IMG/VR virus record: IMGVR_UViG_3300042691_019380 | Span: 28,856-92,855 of that record | Length of the DNA: 64,000 nucleotides | Strand: one strand, 5' to 3' | DNA from: a virus | Shown here: in pieces, positions 13,739-23,769 of the stretch | How positions within the stretch are numbered: the first letter of the stretch is position 1 | How the letters are laid out: the number at the start of each line of letters is the position of its first letter | The notes under the pieces: model-generated | What the model was told of the DNA's origin: nothing | The model's input: only the letters and a program-made list of their open reading frames with translations | Databases searched by the model: none | Made by a program: the position numbers and the translations under genes

Positions 13739-14070
13739 TTTGCCACCCCTTCCGCCGCCCTACGGCGGCACTCTTCGATGCACGTCTCGTACTCGCCTCC
13801 CGGCCCGTCGAGGCTCGACGTGCTGAACAGGTGGGCGAGTTGATGGACGATCAGACGCAGGGCTGCGTCGCTGCGGATCGACGTATGACCTACGCCGTCG
13901 CGAAACAAAGCCTGGACATGATCGTGAAGTCTCTTCGTGACCGCCACGGGGTTGCATGCCCCTTGCTGGATCGCGAGTGCGTCTGAATGTCTGCTCACTG
14001 GTTTGGTCTCCTTCTTCTGGAAGTACTCGATCGCTGCTCGCTGCTCGTCTTGGAGTCTCTTGTTTCTCAT
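13735..14070 (-). CDS. Hypothetical protein
   Basis: ATGA-coupled; QQGACNP...D.A.RLIVHQLA.L. Confidence 0.55.
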   Translation of the reverse strand: MRNKRLQDEQRAAIEYFQKKETKPVSRHSDALAIQQGACNPVAVTKRLHDHVQALFRDGVGHTSIRSDAALRLIVHQLAHLFSTSSLDGPGGEYETCIEECRRRAAEGVAK

Positions 14071-14888
14071 GGGGTCACCGTGTCCGTACAAGGGATCACG
14101 ACTCCACACTGCTCACAGAGTTTGGCGACCTCGGCTGCAAGTTCTTCCGGAGTGTGCGAGCCGCAGCGTCGTGCTTCGCTCGTCGCGACGCAGCCCTCGT
14201 CGACTGCCAGGGCAGCCGGGAAGCAGTTGCCCGGAAGGAACCCAAACCGCTCTTGATGCGACCAGAACAGCCGACGCAGGCTGGCGTTGTGGCAGAAAAC
14301 GAACGCCAGACGGTCAACGTCGACCGGCTGGTTCGCAGCCTTGACCAGCACCTCGACCTGATGCTGCACAGCCGCCCCCGACTGCCGCGACGTTCCCTTG
14401 CAGGCCCACAGTTCCACCCGCAGCCCCAGGCTCTCCAGAACGTCGACCGCCGCGAGGACAACGGCACCACGAGCGAAGATCGCCTCGGCCTTCACGCCTG
14501 CACTCACGGCGAGATTCACGAACAGCCGCACGACACGCTGCGATCCGAACCTGCCGACTTCGTACTCGCTGTACGATCCGCAAGCCTCGGGCTCGCCCGA
14601 CAAGACTCGGCCGACGTCAACGAAGTCTCCGGTGACGTCCCAGGCAAACTGCTGGCATGCTGCGGTCTTCGATGCCTCGACGCACCGATCGAGGCTCGCC
14701 CGAATCTCGGCGACGCGAGCGGCCCCCTCGGCCCAGCCGGTCTGAGCCAGATACACAGCCTCGCCGAACGTGCTGGTCCCAGAGAAGCCCACACGTCCGA
14801 CCGTGCGGCTGCTCGTGCCCTTGCCCTGCGGCACCTTGCGGACGTCTTCGAGGAAGGATTCGTAATCGTGAAATGCGTGGCGAGCCAT
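14067..14888 (-). CDS. vWA-like partner of AAA+ ATPase, paralogue 3
   Basis: WDVTGDFVDVGRVLSGEPE motif shared with two neighbours; start MARHAF after its own promoter. Confidence 0.7.
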   Translation of the reverse strand: MARHAFHDYESFLEDVRKVPQGKGTSSRTVGRVGFSGTSTFGEAVYLAQTGWAEGAARVAEIRASLDRCVEASKTAACQQFAWDVTGDFVDVGRVLSGEPEACGSYSEYEVGRFGSQRVVRLFVNLAVSAGVKAEAIFARGAVVLAAVDVLESLGLRVELWACKGTSRQSGAAVQHQVEVLVKAANQPVDVDRLAFVFCHNASLRRLFWSHQERFGFLPGNCFPAALAVDEGCVATSEARRCGSHTPEELAAEVAKLCEQCGVVIPCTDTVTP

Positions 14889-14921
14889 GTCTTGTTTCTC
14901 CTGTCGATCGGGCGATGCCCA

Positions 14922-14976
14922 AGTATTGCAGACGTCCGGAGTGGTGTCAAGCGGCCGGTCCAGGCCTATGACACAA
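14922..14976 (-). promoter_or_regulatory. Sigma70-type promoter with TTGTGTCATA box
   Basis: TTGACA-N17-AATACT; box at 14967-14976. Confidence 0.75.
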
Positions 14977-15778
14977 TCGCTTCCCGTTCTTCTTTCGTGA
15001 ACGACACGCCGCAAGACTCGCAGACTTGCAAGACTCGTGCGGCCCTGGCTGCTGCCGTCGCGTCCTCCTGCCTGACCTCGGGCGTCGCGATCGCGCCCTC
15101 CTCGACGAGCAGGGGGCACGTTCCCGTGCCGTTGGGCGAGAAGCCCAGGTCTTCCTCCACCGAGAAGAACAGCCTGCGCAGGCTGGCGTTGTGCGCCAGA
15201 AAGAACGCGACGCGATCGGGCTCGAACGGCTGGGCGGCGTCTTTGACCTTGACCAGCACGGTGAGTTTCTCGCCGTCCTGGCGACGATGCGATCCGCTGC
15301 CGAGCCAGAGTTCGACTCGGTGGCCGAGAGTCTCCAGAACGTCCACGGCAGCGAACACAGCGGCGCCTGCGGAGAAGATGCTCTTCTGCTTGACGCCACC
15401 AATCGCTGACACGTTCGCGACCAACTTGATCACGCGAGTCGAGGGCTGCGAGTCTTGGCCTTCGCGAAACGAGCCGCAGCACTCGGGCTCTCCCGACAAG
15501 ACTCGGCCGACGTCGAGAAAGTCTCCCGTGACGTCCCACTCCAGTTTGCACGACTTGGCTGCGATCGCCTTGTCGACGACAGACTCCAACTCGGCGCGGA
15601 GTTTCGCGAGACTCTCGGCGCCCTCGGGCCAGCCCTTCACGGCGAGCGAGACAGCCTCCGGAAAAGTAGCCGTTCCGTGGAAGGACTCGTCGAGCCCAGT
15701 GTGGGAGACTTTTTCGCCGTTGGTGTCGGCAGCGGCGATGAACTCGCCGACGGTTTCGTAAGTCACGACTGTGTGCAT
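14966..15778 (-). CDS. vWA-like partner of AAA+ ATPase, paralogue 2
   Basis: WDVTGDFLDVGRVLSGEPECCG; AFFLAHNASLRRLFF. Confidence 0.7.
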   Translation of the reverse strand: MHTVVTYETVGEFIAAADTNGEKVSHTGLDESFHGTATFPEAVSLAVKGWPEGAESLAKLRAELESVVDKAIAAKSCKLEWDVTGDFLDVGRVLSGEPECCGSFREGQDSQPSTRVIKLVANVSAIGGVKQKSIFSAGAAVFAAVDVLETLGHRVELWLGSGSHRRQDGEKLTVLVKVKDAAQPFEPDRVAFFLAHNASLRRLFFSVEEDLGFSPNGTGTCPLLVEEGAIATPEVRQEDATAAARAARVLQVCESCGVSFTKEEREAIVS

Positions 15779-15797
15779 GTGAGTGTCTTTCTGTGTT

Positions 15798-16631
15798 TCA
15801 GGACTTGACCAGTTCCGCGATCTGCTCGTCATCGAACGACAGTCCGCACTTCTCGGCGATCTTGATCACGTTGGACTTGAGGCTCTCGGCCGAGAGGTTG
15901 ACCGCAGAGAGAATCTCATCGATCTCGACCGTGCCTTCGCGAGTGCCGTAATCGTCCACCGCCGCAGGGTGGCAGTTCGACGGCGAGTGGCCGTACAGTT
16001 CCATCCAGCGGAAGCCGAACCGGCGGAAGAACGACGGGTGCGCCACGGTGAACGCGAGACGGTCGGGGTCGACGATCTCATTGGCTCGCTTGGCGGTGAC
16101 GTTCGCCGTGAGGTGCAGGCCGTGGCCCTTGGTCGCGGTCGAGCAGATCACTTCGCAGCGGATGCCGCACGACTCCAGAAGATCGACCGCGACCAGCACG
16201 GCGACGCCACGGGCAGCGATCGCGTCGGCGCTCACGGCGCCGCTGACGCACTGGTTCAGCCGGATCGACACAACCTTCCTGGCGACCGTGTCGCCGTTGT
16301 CGAACTCCTGGCCGCAGCACTCGGGCTCGCCCGACAAGACTCGACCGACGTCGATGAAGTCGCCGACGACGTCCCAGCCGAACGTCTTAGACTTGCAAGT
16401 CTTGGCTGCGTCCAGAAACGCCGCGAGCCCCTCGCGGTGCTTGTTCACGCGAGCGACGCCGTCGGCCCAGCCGCTGGTGAACAACTTCCCAGCGTCGGCG
16501 TATGTGTCGGTCCAGAAGAAGTCCCGGCGGCCGGTGTCCTGGCTGTTCTGGCTCACGCCCTTTTCGGGACGGGCAAGGTCCGCGAGATACTCGCCGACGG
16601 TCTCGTAGTTCTTGGTGACGATCTTGGTCAT
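15798..16631 (-). CDS. vWA-like partner of AAA+ ATPase, paralogue 1
   Basis: WDVVGDFIDVGRVLSGEPECCG; LAFTVAHPSFFRRF. Confidence 0.7.
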   Translation of the reverse strand: MTKIVTKNYETVGEYLADLARPEKGVSQNSQDTGRRDFFWTDTYADAGKLFTSGWADGVARVNKHREGLAAFLDAAKTCKSKTFGWDVVGDFIDVGRVLSGEPECCGQEFDNGDTVARKVVSIRLNQCVSGAVSADAIAARGVAVLVAVDLLESCGIRCEVICSTATKGHGLHLTANVTAKRANEIVDPDRLAFTVAHPSFFRRFGFRWMELYGHSPSNCHPAAVDDYGTREGTVEIDEILSAVNLSAESLKSNVIKIAEKCGLSFDDEQIAELVKS

Positions 16632-16667
16632 GGTGGTGTCTTGCTCCTGGGCCTGTTCCGTTTCCCC

Positions 16668-16704
16668 GCTCCCCGGCTGGCAAGCCCATAGCCAGCCGGG
16701 GAGC
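16668..16704. other. Perfect 14-bp-stem intergenic hairpin
   Basis: GCTCCCCGGCTGGC-N9-GCCAGCCGGGGAGC; no U-tract, so possibly an RNA stability or processing stem. Confidence 0.7.
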
Positions 16705-16726
16705 GTGTCCATACAACGCGGTGAGA

Positions 16727-18016
16727 CTAGAGGTTCGCCTCGACCTTGCTCCGGGTGTCCTTATCGAGTCCCTTCCAGACGCAGGCGTCGAGGACGGCAT
16801 CGACCGGCCAGCCTGCCCGCAGGAGAGCGACGCCGTTGATGTTCGCACGGGGCGAGACGATCACACGGACTCCCTTGCCCAACTTGGCGACGGCGTTGCG
16901 GATGGCGACGACCTTCCGCACGTACTCCGCCGCACGATCCTCGGCGACGGCCTTCTCGCCGTCGGTCTTGACCGGGTGGAGTTTGATGCCCTTGGGGGCC
17001 GGAGCCTCCGCGAACAACTCGACCGACAGGCCGCACGCCGCCGCCTCGATCCGGGGATCGTACGGCCAGTCGAGCAGGACGAACCGATCGAGCGTGGCTG
17101 CGTCGATCTGCTGCCGCCCCACGTACTGCCGATCAGCACCCTGGCCGATCGTATTCGCTCCCGCGATCAGCACGAAATCGGCGTGCTTGGCGACCACTGC
17201 GTCGGGGAACGAAGCGTGCCCGTTCGCGAGCAGTTGATTGATCACCACCAGCACGGCCGGATTGGCCGCGTCGACCTCGTCGAGCAAGAACACGCCGCCG
17301 TGTTCGTAGGCGTCTCGGAGTTGCGTCCGGACGACCTTGCCGTTGGCATCGTGGTAGCCGAGTAGGCTCGACTCCGACGTCTGCGGCCCCACGCTCTTGG
17401 CGTAGAACGGCAGGCCGAGCGAGTCCGCGACGGCATGGGCCGACGAGGTCTTGCCCGAACCGGCGGGGCCGACCAGCCAGAGGTTCCGGCGAGCCGCGAC
17501 GGCGGCGAGCAGGGCCTCAAACTGGACATGCTGGACGCCGACGTCGTGGGTCACGCCCTCGACGGTCACGACCTCGATCCGCTGCGGCACCAGGGCCGCG
17601 ATCCGCTCGTCGACGATCTTGGCGACCTCGTCGCGGTCGACCCCGGCGTCGGCCGAGCCGCCCTGGACGATGCCCGTGTCGCGGATCGCCTCGGCGATGA
17701 TGGTCGCCAAGTCCCGTCCGCCGCCGGTGTAGTGGTCGCGAACGGCGTCGGCGATCTCCGAGTCGCTGTTGACGTGGGTCGCCGAATCGTTACCGTGCCC
17801 AGACTTCTCGGCACCGGAAGCCCACAGGCTCAGGCCGCGAGAAGTCTTGACGACCCGCTCGCCGTTGGGGCCGACGAGGTGGAAGAGGCGGGTCTGGCGA
17901 CCCTTCTCGGTCTCGCGGGTCTCGACCGACTCGATCGTGAACTCGCGACCGTCGGCGACGGTGATCACGGCTCCGACCTTGTACGACTGCCACGAATTGT
18001 TGGTGACGTTGTTCAC
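16727..18016 (-). CDS. MoxR/CbbQ/CobS-type AAA+ ATPase
   Basis: GPAGSGKT, LLDEVD, AGANT, Y.GR..IDAATLDRF, SPRA. Confidence 0.9.
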   Translation of the reverse strand: MNNVTNNSWQSYKVGAVITVADGREFTIESVETRETEKGRQTRLFHLVGPNGERVVKTSRGLSLWASGAEKSGHGNDSATHVNSDSEIADAVRDHYTGGGRDLATIIAEAIRDTGIVQGGSADAGVDRDEVAKIVDERIAALVPQRIEVVTVEGVTHDVGVQHVQFEALLAAVAARRNLWLVGPAGSGKTSSAHAVADSLGLPFYAKSVGPQTSESSLLGYHDANGKVVRTQLRDAYEHGGVFLLDEVDAANPAVLVVINQLLANGHASFPDAVVAKHADFVLIAGANTIGQGADRQYVGRQQIDAATLDRFVLLDWPYDPRIEAAACGLSVELFAEAPAPKGIKLHPVKTDGEKAVAEDRAAEYVRKVVAIRNAVAKLGKGVRVIVSPRANINGVALLRAGWPVDAVLDACVWKGLDKDTRSKVEANL

Positions 18017-18078
18017 TGGGCTTCTCCTTGAAAATCGACTGGGCTTTACGACGGGTGACGTCCACTCGTCATGCCAGG

Positions 18079-18132
18079 AGTATAGGGGACGCCAGGGGTA
18101 GTGTCAAACGGATTTTCCCGTTTATGACACAA
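18079..18132 (-). promoter_or_regulatory. Sigma70-type promoter with TTGTGTCATA box
   Basis: TTGACA-N17-TATACT; box at 18123-18132; terminator hairpin immediately upstream. Confidence 0.85.
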
Positions 18133-18149
18133 CTCAAAAAACCCCTGTT

Positions 18150-19472
18150 TTAGGCCGAAAAACAGGGGTTTTGGGCCTCGGACTCGACGATGTACCGGAT
18201 CACGTTTTCGGAAAATCCGTCCACGTGGACCCATCCGTCCCGGTAGCCGACGCCGTTCTTGTACGGCGCGACGTTGACCATATATGCACGCTCGGCCTTC
18301 GGACGCACGACACGATCGTGCGACTGCTCGTCGGTGATCACGATCAGGCGATCGTGATCGAATCGCTCGACGTATCGAATCGCTTCGCCGAGACGAGTGC
18401 CGCCGTGGTGTTGCGATGTCTCGATCGCTTCAACGCCAGACAGTCCTCGACGAGGCGGCACTTCCACTACTTCGTCTGAGAACGTGAAGGCACGAAGGTC
18501 ATCGCAGTTCACGATCGCAGCGAGAGACGCAGCAGCGTCGATTCTTGTCAAGTCTGATCGACCAGAGAGTGGCGTGTGCATCGAGCCAGAGACGTCGACC
18601 AGCACGATTGTCTTGCCAGCGAGAGTCGGCAACTCGTGAATCGACGCGAGCATCGCGATGTTGAGCGTCGGCTCAAGAGACGGCGCGGCTTTGGCGGCAG
18701 CAACGTAACGAAACGGCAGCACGCGATCCGCGCCGAGCCTGCCCAGGATCGCGTTCTTGATCAGCGACGTCTCGACGCCAGCCTCGATCATGTTTCGCAG
18801 ATTGCGAAGCAAGGCGAGATAGCCGATCCGTTGCTCGCGAATCAGTCTCTCGAACGTGGCCTTCTTGTCGGCTCCCGCAGAGAGAGCGACCTCCCACGTA
18901 TCGGGAGACGCGAGCGTACCCTCGACGAGAGCCCGCCACGTTGCCGCTTGCTCGGGTGTGTCGGGCTTGGCGTGACACAGGAACAGGACGTCGCGAAGTT
19001 TCACGGCGTCAGGCTTGTTGTATTTGGCGAGTTGGTGCGCATTGAACTTCTTGAATGCCTGGGCCAAGCCCTTCTTCATCGGGTTCGAGAGCGGCTTCTT
19101 TCCGTCGGCCCAGTAGATCGCGACAAGTTCCGCGAGTTCGTCGGCACGCTGAATCGTGTCGGCGATCGCCTGCGAGACAAGTTTGCCCGTGCCGTGCTTG
19201 ATAAGAGCCTTGAGCAGAAGCAGCGGCACGTGACGAAGATGGAACTTCGATCGAGCCTCGACGGCGAGGGCAGCGATCTCGGACGGCTCGACCTTTTCGC
19301 ACAGGGCGAGGATTCGATCCGCGACGTCGACGCCGTCTTCGTAGTGCGTCGACTCCCAGAGCAAGCATGTCAGGACGCTGCGTCGCAGTTCCTGGCTGGG
19401 GGTGATGCGAACAGCAGGGCCACCCTCGTGGGTGACCACGGCGGGCGAGACTTGGGCAGTGTTGATTCGCAC
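18150..19472 (-). CDS. rsr: Ro60/Rsr TROVE-domain RNA-binding protein
   Basis: THEGG, LRRSVL.CLLWE..YE, QLAKY...V.LRDVL.L.H.KP, TWE..LS, ALLRNLRN, vWA DVSGSM, ITDEQ, GFSE. Confidence 0.92.
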   Translation of the reverse strand: MRINTAQVSPAVVTHEGGPAVRITPSQELRRSVLTCLLWESTHYEDGVDVADRILALCEKVEPSEIAALAVEARSKFHLRHVPLLLLKALIKHGTGKLVSQAIADTIQRADELAELVAIYWADGKKPLSNPMKKGLAQAFKKFNAHQLAKYNKPDAVKLRDVLFLCHAKPDTPEQAATWRALVEGTLASPDTWEVALSAGADKKATFERLIREQRIGYLALLRNLRNMIEAGVETSLIKNAILGRLGADRVLPFRYVAAAKAAPSLEPTLNIAMLASIHELPTLAGKTIVLVDVSGSMHTPLSGRSDLTRIDAAASLAAIVNCDDLRAFTFSDEVVEVPPRRGLSGVEAIETSQHHGGTRLGEAIRYVERFDHDRLIVITDEQSHDRVVRPKAERAYMVNVAPYKNGVGYRDGWVHVDGFSENVIRYIVESEAQNPCFSA

Positions 19473-19502
19473 GACCGTGGCTCCTGACTGAAGAAAAAAG
19501 GA

Positions 19503-19576
19503 TGCTGGCGAGAACAGCGAGACCGGGGAATCAAACGCCTTAGTGTGAAGTATCCGGCCTCTGCACTACGCCAGCA
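19503..19576 (-). ncRNA. Y RNA-like (Yrl) RNA 2
   Basis: Terminal stem UGCUGGCG/CGCCAGCA, bulged UAGUGCAG/CUGUUCU helix, UACUUC loop start; directly upstream of TROVE. Confidence 0.7.
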
Positions 19577-19587
19577 GTACGAAAAGA

Positions 19588-19656
19588 GTCGCGAGAACAA
19601 ACGGACACGGCACGGGTTCTTTTCAAGAGAAGTAGCCGTGGCCTTCGCTACGCGAC
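19588..19656 (-). ncRNA. Y RNA-like (Yrl) RNA 1
   Basis: Terminal stem GUCGCG/CGCGAC, UAGCGAAGG/UUUGUUCU bulged helix, UACUUC; same architecture as RNA 2. Confidence 0.7.
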
Positions 19657-19663
19657 GAGAGTC

Positions 19664-19691
19664 AGTGTACGGATACACCAACGGCGAGCAA
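19664..19691 (-). promoter_or_regulatory. Putative promoter for the Y RNA-rsr unit
   Basis: TTGCTC-N16-TACACT; similar TTGACC-N16-TACACT at 21347-21374. Confidence 0.5.
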
Positions 19692-19700
19692 GGAGTTTTT

Positions 19701-20087
19701 TCAGGCCACTCCAGCCGGAAGCGGCTGCCAGTGCGTTGGCTGCGGCTTGAACGTCGCAAGCGAGTCTGGCTTGACGAACGTGCCGTCTTCGTCGCACGCG
19801 CCGACCGAGACAGCGTCTCCACGGCAGACCAGCACGGTCTCGTCGACGTCTGGAAGCCGAGACTTGATCGACACCCACGGAGACTTGGGCTTGGGCTTGG
19901 GCTTGGGCTTGGGCTTACCCGTGCTGGCGAGTTTCACCCTGACGTCGAGAGTCGCGAGCCCGTCGATCTCCTGCGTCACCGACACGTCTGTCACGTACGC
20001 CCGGACGATGTCGGAGAACATTCCTCCGTAACCGTACTGGGACGAGACGTACTCGACGATCGCGTCGGCTAGGGCTTCGTGCGTCAT
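19701..20087 (-). CDS. DUF551-like domain protein with (PK)n linker
   Basis: WVSIK.RLP...PTHWQPLP. Confidence 0.7.
   Translation of the reverse strand: MTHEALADAIVEYVSSQYGYGGMFSDIVRAYVTDVSVTQEIDGLATLDVRVKLASTGKPKPKPKPKPKSPWVSIKSRLPDVDETVLVCRGDAVSVGACDEDGTFVKPDSLATFKPQPTHWQPLPAGVA
19884..19916. repeat. (CTTGGG)5 hexanucleotide tandem repeat
   Basis: Seen directly; encodes KPKPKPKPKPK. Confidence 0.95.
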
Positions 20088-20476
20088 GCGATCTCAGCCT
20101 CGAACCTCGCCGCTGCGTTCATCACATCAGTGACCCTCTGCGACCGCAGGCTCGACTCTCGCCACGCTCGCCGAGCCGCCAGCGAGAGGGCCGCGCCGAG
20201 GGCCACCGTCCGGCGGAGTCGAGTCATCTCTGACAGGACAACCGCCAGGAAGTGTGGGTCCGCCGAGACGCAGTCCTCACGGCCGCACGGGTCGCAGTCC
20301 GCGACCGCAGCAGCCAGGGACCGCATCACATCGTCAGACGAGTGCGAGCCGAGAGCCTCCTGCCCAGCCATGCACTCACGCAGTCGCTCGATCTCCTGGG
20401 CCGCGTCCTCGGCGATGCTGTTGCAGAACAGGCAGATCGCATCTTTACGAAGACGGTCAACGATATCGACGCTCAT
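20084..20476 (-). CDS. Hypothetical protein
   Basis: DIVDRLR...AA.EIERLR motif, common in phage proteins. Confidence 0.6.
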   Translation of the reverse strand: MSVDIVDRLRKDAICLFCNSIAEDAAQEIERLRECMAGQEALGSHSSDDVMRSLAAAVADCDPCGREDCVSADPHFLAVVLSEMTRLRRTVALGAALSLAARRAWRESSLRSQRVTDVMNAAARFEAEIA

Positions 20477-21370: not shown

Positions 21371-21811
21371 TCAAGGAGTTTTTTTGCGAGACCGTCCGCT
21401 TGGTCGCTTTGCAGGAGACCGTCGCTCGCCGACTCGGCGAGGTCTGCCGCCAGTCGGCGGATTGGCGAGATACTCGCGGATGTTTTGTTCGCAAGACTTG
21501 CGATCGACAGCCCACGCCTTGTCGTTTAGCCGGAATCCCCTGAGCCGACCGTCGAGAAGCATGCGGCCGACCATGGCGTCGGTCACGCAGACGATGTCGC
21601 AGGCTTCGGGGACACTGATCCATCGCCTGCACAACTTCTTGAACTCTTCAAGATTGCAATCCTGTCCCTCGACGGACTCGCGGCAGACCAGCAGCCCCTT
21701 GCCGCTGAGAGGGACCGCCAGAATCTGTCCCTTGGAGATTCGTTTCAGCACGCCGACCTGGGACATATTGAGGATTTTGGCCGCTTCAGCCACGGAAATT
21801 GGCTGTTTCAT
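21371..21811 (-). CDS. Tandem HTH (excisionase-like) regulator
   Basis: Two ISV.EA..I...G.L repeats; divergent from the integrase. Confidence 0.8.
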   Translation of the reverse strand: MKQPISVAEAAKILNMSQVGVLKRISKGQILAVPLSGKGLLVCRESVEGQDCNLEEFKKLCRRWISVPEACDIVCVTDAMVGRMLLDGRLRGFRLNDKAWAVDRKSCEQNIREYLANPPTGGRPRRVGERRSPAKRPSGRSRKKTP

Positions 21812-22201: not shown

Positions 22202-23068
22202 ATGACTCTCAACAAGTTTTTTGAAGACTTCTACCAGCCTCTCAAGTTGCGGGGCCGCAGCGAAAATACGACGCGGCTGTACGCCAACACTCTCAAGCAG
22301 TACGCCAAGTATCTCGGCAGACCGGCGACGATCGAGGAAGACCTGAACGACCTCGCCGTCTCGCGATACCTCTCGCATCGAGCGAGAGAACGGAGCGTCT
22401 ACACGGCCGAGAAAGAGCGGACGCAGTTGCTGGCTCTCTGGAGGTGCGCGGCTGACCGCAGGCTGACCGAGATGCGGCCCTGCGTTCCGCCGACTCCCAT
22501 CCCGTTTCGAGTGCCGACGGCATGGAGCGTCGACCAACTGAAGGCCCTGCTCGCGGCGGCCAAAGTCGTGAAAGGGAAAGTCGGAGACGTTCCGGCTCAC
22601 ATCTTCTGGACCGCACTTATTCAAGTCCTCTGGCAGAGCGCCGAACGCATCGGCGCGATCATGTCCGTGCTAAAAGAGGACTACACGAGGCCGATCATCC
22701 TCGTCCGCGCCGAGTACCGAAAGGGCGGGAAGCGAGACAAACTCTACACGTTCACAGACCCAGTCTGCGATCTGCTTGACGTGCTGAAGCAGTCCAGCAA
22801 CGGCCCGCAACTCTTCGCGTGGCCGAGAGGGTACGAGTACCTGTGGAACCGATTCGGCAAGATCGTGAAGGCGGCTGGTCTTGAAGGCGGACGCCGCAGC
22901 AAGTTTCACCAACTGAGAAGATCAGCCGCCACGCACTTCGCGGCGAGAGGCGGCGATCCGACGGCGTTGCTGGATCACAGTTCACCGCGAATCACGAAGG
23001 CTTACCTCGACCCGAGGTTCATCGACACTGGTCCCAAGCCTTGCGAAGTCTTGCCTGGGCTAGACTGA
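22202..23068 (+). CDS. int: Tyrosine recombinase/integrase
   Basis: R(IGA), K(GG), HQLRR, LLDHS, TKAY catalytic R-K-H-R-H-Y. Confidence 0.93.
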   Translation: MTLNKFFEDFYQPLKLRGRSENTTRLYANTLKQYAKYLGRPATIEEDLNDLAVSRYLSHRARERSVYTAEKERTQLLALWRCAADRRLTEMRPCVPPTPIPFRVPTAWSVDQLKALLAAAKVVKGKVGDVPAHIFWTALIQVLWQSAERIGAIMSVLKEDYTRPIILVRAEYRKGGKRDKLYTFTDPVCDLLDVLKQSSNGPQLFAWPRGYEYLWNRFGKIVKAAGLEGGRRSKFHQLRRSAATHFAARGGDPTALLDHSSPRITKAYLDPRFIDTGPKPCEVLPGLD

Positions 23069-23769
23069 GATGGCCTCCAGTTCCACACAGCAGCGGCTCC
23101 GCTTACCTCTGGAAGGTATTTCCCGTCGATCTTATCTGGCCTGACCCACTTCGCCAGGAAATCAACTGCCCCGTTTCGCTCAACTCGATAGACGACGCCT
23201 TCTGGTTCGTCGCATCTGCGATTGCGAACAGCGTGCAGTTGCATCGCACGGTCGACGGTCATCGGTGAGCCGACATGCAGCAGTGTCGGCTGGTCAAACT
23301 TGCCTTCAATGCGAACCGCAAACTGCTCGAACGGCAGGCGAGACTCTCCAATCATAATGTCAAACGCAGCGAATGGTTCGACTCCTTCGGCAAAGTCATA
23401 TCGCGTTCCATGAGCCTGGGCCATCCATTCGCCGACGATGCGCTCTCCGTCTCGAAGCACGGACAAAAATCGCTCTCGGTTTTCGTGGACCCACTGATCG
23501 AACAGCCTGTGCTGCTCGTATCGCGAAGAAGCGGCCGCCCATCCCGCGCGGCTAAGGGAGTGAAGGACTCCATCCAGCATCGCAACGGCTACGCACGAGC
23601 CGTCCAGTTTCTCCTGAACGATCACGGTGTCGTGCCTGTCTCGCGACCTCGTCGTGCAAATCCGAGCCTGCCCTGCCGTGATAGACCGATCCGACGGGCC
23701 AAGTCTGCTGTTCGGCAGGTGGCCAATCGACCCGTACGACTTCCGGCCGAGAGGCTTGAGGTGCGTCAT
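23002..23769 (-). CDS. ATP-dependent RNA ligase-family nucleotidyltransferase
   Basis: QEKLDGS, GEW, FDI, EGVV, AKWV motifs I-V. Confidence 0.85.
   Translation of the reverse strand: MTHLKPLGRKSYGSIGHLPNSRLGPSDRSITAGQARICTTRSRDRHDTVIVQEKLDGSCVAVAMLDGVLHSLSRAGWAAASSRYEQHRLFDQWVHENRERFLSVLRDGERIVGEWMAQAHGTRYDFAEGVEPFAAFDIMIGESRLPFEQFAVRIEGKFDQPTLLHVGSPMTVDRAMQLHAVRNRRCDEPEGVVYRVERNGAVDFLAKWVRPDKIDGKYLPEVSGAAAVWNWRPSQSSPGKTSQGLGPVSMNLGSR

What the first reader, a model, noticed from the sequence alone, without database searches (positions are those of the whole stretch)
18150..19691. Phage Ro60/Rsr with two minimal tandem Y-RNA-like genes
Seen: the ~200-bp gap upstream of the TROVE gene folds into two 69-74-nt hairpins. 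Their stem sequences differ but still pair, and they share GCG-UAG(C/U)G(A/C)AG, UACUUC and UGUUCU-CGC, with a putative promoter just upstream. Established: bacterial Rsr binds Y RNAs (YrlA/YrlB) encoded next to rsr via a bulged helix. These lack a full tRNA-like domain; RNA 2 has only a T-loop-like GUUUGAUUC. They may be a compact, undescribed Y RNA class.
Basis: partly seen in the sequence, partly recalled or inferred. Interest (0 to 1): 0.8.

Follow-up and report, generated by a model that had tools for sequence, protein, structure and literature searches.

The report
Compact Y RNAs beside phage Ro60
Two ~70-nt hairpin RNAs in front of a phage's Ro60 gene are stripped-down members of the known bacterial and phage Y RNA family: they keep the conserved protein-docking stem but lack the tRNA-like part, which makes this a solid but incremental addition.

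Summary

They are not chance hairpins. A covariance model built only from loci whose TROVE protein is 66% identical or less finds exactly these two sites in the 64-kb window (E 4e-17 and 1e-10). The same scaffold lies on the TROVE strand in 83 of 84 phage loci and about 70 of 80 bacterial loci. 16 of 18 base pairs show compensatory changes.

The scaffold comes in two forms. The compact form (~70-90 nt) has a short loop at the apex. The long form (~130-150 nt) carries a tRNA-like domain there and matches Rfam YrlA below threshold. The window's RNAs are therefore YrlA-type handles without the tRNA mimic.

This complete 92.8-kb phage genome has no tRNA-like Y RNA and no tRNA.

Hairpin-type Y RNAs are already published: YrlB, Yrn2, and Thermus phage phiLo Yrl1/Yrl2. 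"Undescribed class" is therefore overstated. The T-loop-like motif is not conserved.

This scan found the same UACUUC scaffold earlier on other DNA.

Verdict: a new variant of a known kind, of moderate interest. No expression or binding data exist.

The parts
19664..19691 (-). Sigma-70-type promoter candidate: -35 TTGCTC (19691-19686), 16-nt spacer, -10 TACACT (19669-19664). The expected start is a few nt before RNA1.
   Evidence: Read from the sequence. The same TTGCNN-16-TACA(C/A/T)T arrangement sits at the same distance before the first unit in L007, L008, L009, L011 and L036, and TTGACA/TTGCAA-type promoters precede the first unit in many other loci. The strict consensus scan did not flag it.
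19588..19656 (-). RNA1, a compact Y RNA of 69 nt. Parts: P1 GUCGCG/CGCGAC; bulged U; A-U and G-C pairs; AGCGAAG box (the GNCGAAN0-1G motif with a G-to-A change at the first position); P2 GGCCACGGC/GCCGUGUCC; apical loop UACUUC...; 3' box CGUUUGUUCUC.
   Evidence: Fold: z -3.9. R1 70.5 bits. Leave-out R2 66.1 bits, E 4e-17. Covariation on A3.
19503..19576 (-). RNA2, a compact Y RNA of 74 nt. Parts: P1 UGCUGGCG/CGCCAGCA; AGUGCAG box (no CGAA); P2 GAGGCCGG/CCGGUCUC; about 28-nt apical loop that starts with UACUUC; 3' box CGCUGUUCUC.
   Evidence: Fold: z -4.0. R1 49.9 bits. Leave-out R2 44.3 bits, E 1.2e-10.
19491..19500 (-). U-rich tract CUUUUUUCUU directly after RNA2. It may be a partial terminator or 3'-end signal, or only a spacer.
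   Evidence: Read from the sequence. It is U-rich in L007, L013 and L021 but not family-wide.
19481..19485 (-). Shine-Dalgarno AGGAG, 8 nt before the GTG start of the TROVE gene.
   Evidence: Read from the sequence.
18150..19472 (-). Ro60/Rsr orthologue: TROVE HEAT-repeat ring plus vWA domain, 440 aa.
   Evidence: Pfam TROVE 8.8e-14 and VWA_2. phmmer 8.7e-31 over the full length to phiLo Ro60 9KOP/9L5Y. AlphaFold2 model with pLDDT 85.6. Foldseek: 9KOP 6e-19, Rsr 2NVO 1.3e-12, Xenopus Ro 1YVP 7e-12.
18136..18172 (-). Intrinsic terminator of the unit: a 13-14 bp stem (CCCCUGUUUU/AAAACAGGGG core) followed by UUUUUU. It overlaps the TROVE stop codon.
   Evidence: Fold -20.1 kcal/mol, z -3.0. Read from the sequence.

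Best explanation
The 1.55-kb stretch is a self-contained phage Ro60 ribonucleoprotein unit: promoter, two compact Y RNAs, Ro60 gene, terminator.

RNA1 and RNA2 are paralogous members of the Y RNA family that accompanies this TROVE clade. Each has:
- a variable closing stem (P1);
- a conserved bulged helix and internal loop, G-U-(G/A)-G-Y-G-W-A-G opposite C-G-Y-U-U-G-U-U-C-Y-C;
- a second stem (P2) whose top three pairs are nearly invariant;
- an apical loop that begins with an invariant UACUUC.

In most related loci the same handle also carries a tRNA-like domain at the apex (the YrlA type). Here both copies have only a ~20-28-nt loop (the YrlB type).

Inferred steps, not shown here:
1. The RNAs are transcribed with the Ro60 mRNA and cut out of its leader.
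2. They dock on the outer face of the Ro60 ring through the conserved bulged helix.
3. They gate the ring or tether it to a host exoribonuclease such as PNPase through the single-stranded, pyrimidine-rich loop. This would redirect host structured-RNA decay or repair during infection.
For: Protein:
- It is a Ro60 orthologue by sequence and by predicted fold.
- Its closest solved relative, phiLo Ro60, binds two hairpin Yrls encoded upstream of its own gene and binds host PNPase (PMC12135203).

RNA family:
- TACTTC occurs 1-6 times upstream of TROVE in 79 of 80 IMG/VR loci. About 0.2 per locus is expected by chance.
- On the MAFFT alignment of 57 compact units, 86.9% of cells are paired. 16 of 18 pairs show changes on both sides. 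0 of 500 shuffles reach this, and the slid controls reach 51% at most.
- RNAalifold predicts the same helices independently.
- One pair switches cleanly between G-C (44 units) and A-U (13 units), matching GUGG...UCCC against GUAG...UCUC.
- Model R1 gives 183 hits in 83 of 84 phage sources and 130 hits in about 70 of 80 bacterial loci. Every hit is on the TROVE strand and matches the model end to end. Hit lengths are bimodal.
- The leave-out model R2 finds only RNA1 and RNA2 in the window.
- R1 finds only those two in the whole 92.8-kb genome.

Link to published Y RNAs:
- The long forms match Rfam YrlA (RF02553) at 31-56 bits, E down to 4e-10. This includes Caulobacter phage CcrColossus, a phage for which Y RNA-like RNAs were reported earlier (stated in PMC12135203).
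- The 5' box equals the published GNCGAAN0-1G Rsr motif, for example GGCGAAG. RNA1 has AGCGAAG (PMC4201824).

Operon logic:
- A promoter is conserved just before the first unit, and the last unit ends about 26-50 nt before the start codon in most loci.
- M. smegmatis YrlA and YrlB are likewise processed from one precursor upstream of rsr.
Against: - There is no expression, processing or binding evidence for this phage.
- Rfam has no hit for either RNA, even at E of 10 or less.
- RNA2 lacks the CGAA core (it reads AGUGCAG) and scores 20 bits below RNA1.
- The U-run after RNA2, 28 nt before the start codon, also fits a leader or attenuator role.
- PNPase tethering is inferred only by analogy. 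The host is unknown.
Confidence: 0.8

Rival explanations
1. The hairpins act only in cis. In this reading they are leader structures of the Ro60 mRNA that attenuate transcription (hairpin plus U-run) or let Ro60 repress its own translation, and they do not accumulate as free small RNAs.
For: - RNA2 is followed by CUUUUUUCUU, and only 28 nt separate it from the GTG start, with the SD in between.
- No separate promoter fits between RNA2 and the gene, so the gene must be read through the hairpins.
- The last unit ends 26-50 nt from the start codon in most loci.
Against: - The same units lie downstream of TROVE in L078 (three units) and L066.
- In bacterial loci they lie up to about 1 kb upstream.
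- The U-run is not conserved across the family.
- Sibling units carry tRNA-like domains that match YrlA, a trans-acting RNA class.
- The invariant loop and internal-loop sequences are not needed for a terminator.
- The two roles are not mutually exclusive.
Confidence: 0.12
2. The hairpins are decaying remnants of YrlA-type genes that lost their tRNA-like domain and no longer function.
For: - RNA2 sits where the long form usually lies: the usual order is compact, long, TROVE.
- Its loop holds GUUUGAUUCCC, which matches the T-loop consensus GUUCGAAUCCC at 9 of 11 positions (read from the sequence).
- RNA2 scores lower than RNA1.
Against: - Both RNAs keep every invariant position of the handle and full pairing.
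- They are conserved with a compensatory U-A to C-G change in relatives at 96% and 86% protein identity.
- Compact units are the commonest form: about 109 of 183 hits are 90 nt or shorter, and they are usually the 5'-most unit.
Confidence: 0.05
3. The hairpins are chance GC-rich structures or generic repeat elements unrelated to Ro60.
For: The window is GC-rich, and many sequences in it fold.
Against: - The leave-out covariance model hits only these two sites in 128 kb searched.
- All 313 family hits are on the TROVE strand next to TROVE genes.
- Covariation is strong.
Confidence: 0.01

Closest known systems
YrlA (Rfam RF02553; Chen et al. 2014, PMC4201824), the tRNA-mimicking Y RNA next to bacterial and phage rsr
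   Same: - It is encoded next to Ro60 on the same strand.
- The 5' and 3' ends form a long stem with a GNCGAAN0-1G-type box on the 5' strand and a CUUGU-type box on the 3' strand.
- Long-form siblings in related loci match the YrlA model and share the window RNAs' handle end to end.
   Different: - There is no tRNA-like (T/D-arm) domain.
- There is no Rfam hit at E of 10 or less.
- This clade has an extra invariant UACUUC at the top of P2 where the YrlA consensus has CUA. Even its long forms stay below the Rfam gathering score (56 bits at most, against 69).
YrlB (Salmonella, M. smegmatis) and Yrn2 (D. radiodurans): second, hairpin-type Y RNAs (PMC4201824)
   Same: [quoted passage not shown]
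- It is encoded upstream of rsr beside other Y RNAs.
- M. smegmatis YrlA and YrlB are processed from one precursor.
   Different: - No sequence family has been defined for YrlB; BLAST found it only in Salmonella serovars.
- In those species a tRNA-like Y RNA is always present as well. Here none exists in the complete genome.
Yrl1 and Yrl2 of Thermus phage phiLo with phiRo60 (PMC12135203; PDB 9KOP, 9L5Y)
   Same: - It is a phage.
- Two hairpin Y-like RNAs lie directly upstream of the Ro60 gene.
- It has a CGAA motif, as RNA1 does.
- The protein is the closest solved homologue (E 8.7e-31; Foldseek 6e-19).
- Binding to Ro60 and to host PNPase was shown there.
   Different: - Protein identity is only about 26%.
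- I could not compare the RNA sequences, because they are not held as references.
- RNA2 lacks CGAA.
Metazoan Y RNAs (Rfam RF00019)
   Same: It is a stem formed by the 5' and 3' ends, with a conserved bulged helix that binds Ro60 and a pyrimidine-rich loop.
   Different: - There is no significant match to the model.
- The conserved bases differ.
- It is transcribed from a bacterial-type promoter together with the Ro60 mRNA.

Membership tests
Bacterial/phage Y RNA (Ro60-associated ncRNA, Chen et al. 2014) | Encoded within a few kb of a Ro60/TROVE gene, on the same strand | tested here: met
   RNA2 ends 30 nt and RNA1 ends 115 nt upstream of the TROVE start, on the same strand. The same holds for all 313 family hits.
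Bacterial/phage Y RNA (Ro60-associated ncRNA, Chen et al. 2014) | Long stem formed by the 5' and 3' ends, interrupted by a conserved bulge or internal loop | tested here: met
   P1, bulged U, P1b, internal loop and P2 are supported by covariation and by the folds.
Bacterial/phage Y RNA (Ro60-associated ncRNA, Chen et al. 2014) | GNCGAAN0-1G motif near the 5' end | tested here: inconclusive
   The family consensus is GG(U/C)G(A/U)AG, and many units read GGCGAAG exactly. RNA1 reads AGCGAAG: the first G is an A, paired with a compensating U. RNA2 reads AGUGCAG, with no CGAA.
Bacterial/phage Y RNA (Ro60-associated ncRNA, Chen et al. 2014) | Binds the Ro60 orthologue and depends on it for stability | not testable with these tools
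   This needs RIP, EMSA or Northern blots. No RNA run holding this DNA was listed.
YrlA (Rfam RF02553) | tRNA-like domain (T arm, D arm) at the apex | tested here: not met
   There is no YrlA or tRNA model hit in the window region at E of 10 or less. Neither model hits anywhere in the whole genome. ARAGORN finds nothing. The apical segments are 23-28 nt.
YrlA (Rfam RF02553) | Score at or above the Rfam gathering threshold (69 bits) | tested here: not met
   The window has no hit. The long-form relatives reach only 31-56 bits.
YrlB/Yrn2-type hairpin Y RNA | [quoted passage not shown] | tested here: met
   The apical loops begin UACUUCUCUU (RNA1) and UACUUCACACU (RNA2), and the two-helix hairpin is confirmed. 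The class is defined descriptively in PMC4201824.
Ro60/Rsr protein family | TROVE HEAT-repeat ring followed by a vWA domain | tested here: met
   Pfam TROVE plus VWA_2. The full-length fold matches 9KOP, 2NVO and 1YVP with TM 0.63-0.70.

The most novel reading that the evidence does not exclude
The compact units may be a functionally distinct, widespread subclass of Y RNA rather than a trimmed YrlA. In this reading, the phage shows that a Ro60 system can work with no tRNA-like Y RNA at all. The invariant UACUUC loop and the CGG/CCG clamp below it, which are more conserved than the GNCGAA box, would be the true docking site for Ro60 or for a host effector such as PNPase. That would make this a natural minimal Y RNA for structural and mechanistic work.
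Probability: 0.25. Interest if true: 0.55.

Novelty: new variant of a known kind. Interest (0 to 1): 0.4.

Why it matters
Bacterial Y RNAs are defined in the literature and in Rfam by their tRNA-like domain. Chen et al. [quoted passage not shown]

This locus, together with the roughly 160 related loci gathered here, shows three things:
- The Ro60-docking handle is a portable module.
- The handle most often occurs without the tRNA mimic.
- A complete phage genome can carry only the compact form.

That gives a ~70-nt natural minimal Y RNA and a 440-aa Ro60 for binding and structure studies. It also gives a covariance model that finds Y RNAs which Rfam misses. Finally, it suggests that 'tRNA' features annotated beside TROVE genes in several GenBank phage records are Y RNA domains.

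It does not change the known picture of how Ro60 and Y RNA particles work.

Tried and rejected
- Rfam on 17900-20100 at E of 10 or less gave only three weak, unrelated matches outside the hairpins.
- ARAGORN on the window found no tRNA or tmRNA.
- Rfam YrlA and tRNA models on the whole phage genome gave no hit.
- Sequencing runs: no RNA holder was listed, only DNA metagenomes. Read laying was therefore not used, and nothing can be said about expression.
- The strict sigma-70 scan did not flag the promoter before RNA1. It found only the promoter of the downstream AAA gene. The RNA1 promoter call rests on positional conservation.
- T-loop reading of GUUUGAUUC: rejected as a functional T arm. It has no T stem and is not conserved in L007. 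A relic of a T loop cannot be excluded.
- Linkage of TROVE with the downstream MoxR-like AAA gene: found only in the nearest relatives (L001, L002, L011), so it is not part of the system.
- The supplements of PMC4201824 and two Wolin-lab reviews were not held. I could not compare coordinates with the published CcrColossus YrlA or read what the reviews say about YrlB.
- A literature search for UACUUC together with Ro60, Y RNA or Rsr returned no paper containing the motif.
- My regex classification of units was rough and was replaced by the covariance-model search.

Full report
**The locus.** The minus-strand ORF 18150-19472 encodes a 440-aa protein with Pfam TROVE (8.8e-14) and vWA matches. It aligns over its full length with the Ro60 of Thermus phage phiLo (PDB 9KOP/9L5Y, E 8.7e-31). 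An AlphaFold2 model (pLDDT 85.6) matches phiLo Ro60, human and Xenopus Ro60, and Deinococcus Rsr (Foldseek E 6e-19 to 1e-10, TM 0.6-0.7). It is therefore a compact Ro60 orthologue. The window belongs to a complete 92.8-kb virus record with direct terminal repeats.

**The observation.** A DUF551 gene ends at 19701. The 228 nt between it and the GTG start at 19472 fold into two hairpins (z -4.0):
- RNA1, 19656-19588 (69 nt, z -3.9).
- RNA2, 19576-19503 (74 nt, z -4.0).

Both carry GCGUAG(C/U)G(A/C)AG, UACUUC and UGUUCUCGC. Their stems differ in sequence but still pair. The two closest relatives in IMG/VR, at 96% and 86% protein identity, keep both hairpins. One of them has a U-A to C-G double change in P1 of RNA1.

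**Family context.** I collected 80 IMG/VR loci and 80 bacterial loci that encode relatives of the protein at 53-96% identity, plus three GenBank phages.
- TACTTC occurs 1-6 times upstream of TROVE in 79 of the 80 viral loci.
- Each occurrence sits in the same scaffold: closing stem P1, bulged U, two G-C pairs, G-Y-G-W-A-G, stem P2 ending CGG(Y), UACUUC, a variable apex, the return strand of P2, C-G-Y-U-U-G-U-U-C-Y-C, and the return strand of P1.

**Covariation.** I tested this structure on a MAFFT alignment of 57 compact units.
- 86.9% of cells are paired, against 63% in column shuffles and 51% at most when the partners are slid.
- 16 of 18 pairs show changes on both sides.
- RNAalifold finds the same helices on its own.
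- One pair alternates cleanly between G-C (44 units) and A-U (13 units). The window's GUAG...UCUC is the A-U version.

**Covariance-model searches.** Model R1 gives 183 matches in 83 of 84 phage sources and 130 matches in about 70 of 80 bacterial loci. The bacterial loci come from Caulobacterales, Hyphomicrobiales, Terriglobales and others. Every match is on the TROVE strand and spans the whole model.

**Independent test.** Because the window's RNAs were in the R1 seed, I built R2 without the window and its two close relatives. In the 64-kb window, on both strands, R2 finds only RNA1 (66.1 bits, E 4e-17) and RNA2 (44.3 bits, E 1.2e-10). R1 finds only these two in the whole phage genome.

**Two forms of one handle.** Match lengths are bimodal, at about 70-90 nt and about 130-150 nt.
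- The long forms fold with the same P1 and P2 but carry a multi-branched apex with a T arm and a D arm.
- The long forms match Rfam YrlA at 31-56 bits, below the 69-bit gathering score but with E down to 4e-10. This includes Caulobacter phage CcrColossus, which the phiLo paper lists among phages with reported Y RNA-like RNAs.
- The common order is compact, long, TROVE.
- The window has compact, compact, TROVE. Its genome has no YrlA match and no tRNA.
- The compact apex is a 15-32-nt, mostly unstructured loop that starts with UACUUC and is often followed by GAAA (36 of 57 units).

**Relation to the literature.** Chen et al. 2014 (PMC4201824) defined the GNCGAAN0-1G box as the likely Rsr contact. 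[quoted passage not shown]
- The family's 5' box is that motif, for example GGCGAAG. RNA1 has AGCGAAG and RNA2 has AGUGCAG.
- The phiLo study (PMC12135203) showed that two hairpin Yrls upstream of a phage Ro60 gene bind the protein and host PNPase.
- The window's RNAs are therefore a known kind of thing. Three points are new: they belong to a large, coherent compact subfamily that Rfam does not detect; the handle has an invariant UACUUC that I did not find in the literature; and this phage carries only compact forms.

**Transcription unit.**
- TTGCTC, a 16-nt spacer and TACACT lie 8 nt before RNA1. This arrangement is conserved in relatives, and many other loci have TTGACA/TTGCAA-type promoters at the same place.
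- RNA2 is followed by a U-run, an AGGAG and the GTG start. No room is left for a second promoter.
- A strong hairpin followed by UUUUUU overlaps the stop codon.

I infer a single transcript from which the Y RNAs are cut, as in M. smegmatis.

**Mechanism (inferred, not shown).**
1. The conserved bulged helix docks on the Ro60 ring.
2. The single-stranded UACUUC-led loop contacts Ro60 or an effector such as PNPase.
3. The particle alters structured-RNA decay or repair in the infected cell.

**Rivals.**
- A purely cis-acting leader or attenuator fits the U-run and the proximity to the start codon. It does not fit the units found downstream of TROVE (L078, L066), the units far upstream in bacteria, or the YrlA-type siblings.
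- A decaying relic fits RNA2's lower score and its T-loop-like GUUUGAUUCCC. It does not fit RNA2's intact handle or its conservation.
- Chance is excluded.

**Limits.** No RNA data set holding this DNA was listed. Expression, RNA ends and binding are therefore untested, and the host is unknown.

**Earlier notes of this scan.** The scan reports the same UACUUC scaffold beside Ro60 genes on other DNA, with the same classification. I reached mine from my own loci before reading those notes.

Noticed in passing
L005:5347-5414, L006:5456-5530, L004:5945-6012: GenBank 'tRNA' features next to the TROVE gene overlap Rfam YrlA matches and R1 handle matches: tRNA-Thr in Xanthomonas phage 10KY502B, tRNA-Ser in Brevundimonas phage Gurke and tRNA-Gln in CcrColossus. 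They are probably the tRNA-like domains of Y RNAs, not tRNAs.
   Followed up: partly
L014, L018, L021, L033, L043, L052-L054, L061, L073: about 25-45 nt before the first unit: An inverted repeat GTTGCA-N4-TGCAAC overlaps the -35 region of the promoter in front of the Y RNA array in many relatives. It could be an operator for an unknown regulator. It is absent from the window's promoter.
   Followed up: no
window 16727-18016 (-), promoter 18107-18079 (-): A MoxR-like AAA_5 ATPase gene lies directly downstream of the Ro60 terminator. It has its own near-consensus promoter, TTGACA-17-TATACT. It is linked to TROVE only in the nearest relatives.
   Followed up: partly
window 14067-16712 (-): Three ORFs with DUF7192 domains follow the AAA gene: 15798-16712, 14966-15832 and 14067-15551, with E 5e-33 to 2e-39. 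The last two overlap each other.
   Followed up: no
window 23002-23769 (-): An RNA ligase gene (Pfam PF09414, 6.7e-17) lies about 3.5 kb upstream of the Ro60 unit on the same strand. It could be an RNA-repair partner. An HTH_17 gene lies at 21371-21811.
   Followed up: partly
L078:2838-3341, L066:2982-3054: In these loci the Y RNA units lie downstream of the TROVE gene instead of upstream, on the same strand.
   Followed up: no
L006:1609-1954 (-): Brevundimonas phage Gurke carries a permuted tmRNA (Rfam RF04321, 57.7 bits, above the gathering score) among tRNAs, about 2 kb from its Ro60 gene.
   Followed up: no
A3 columns 34-65 (apical loops of compact units): 36 of 57 compact units have GAAA a few nt after UACUUC. 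RNA1 has UUGAAAAG and RNA2 has none. The meaning is unknown.
   Followed up: partly
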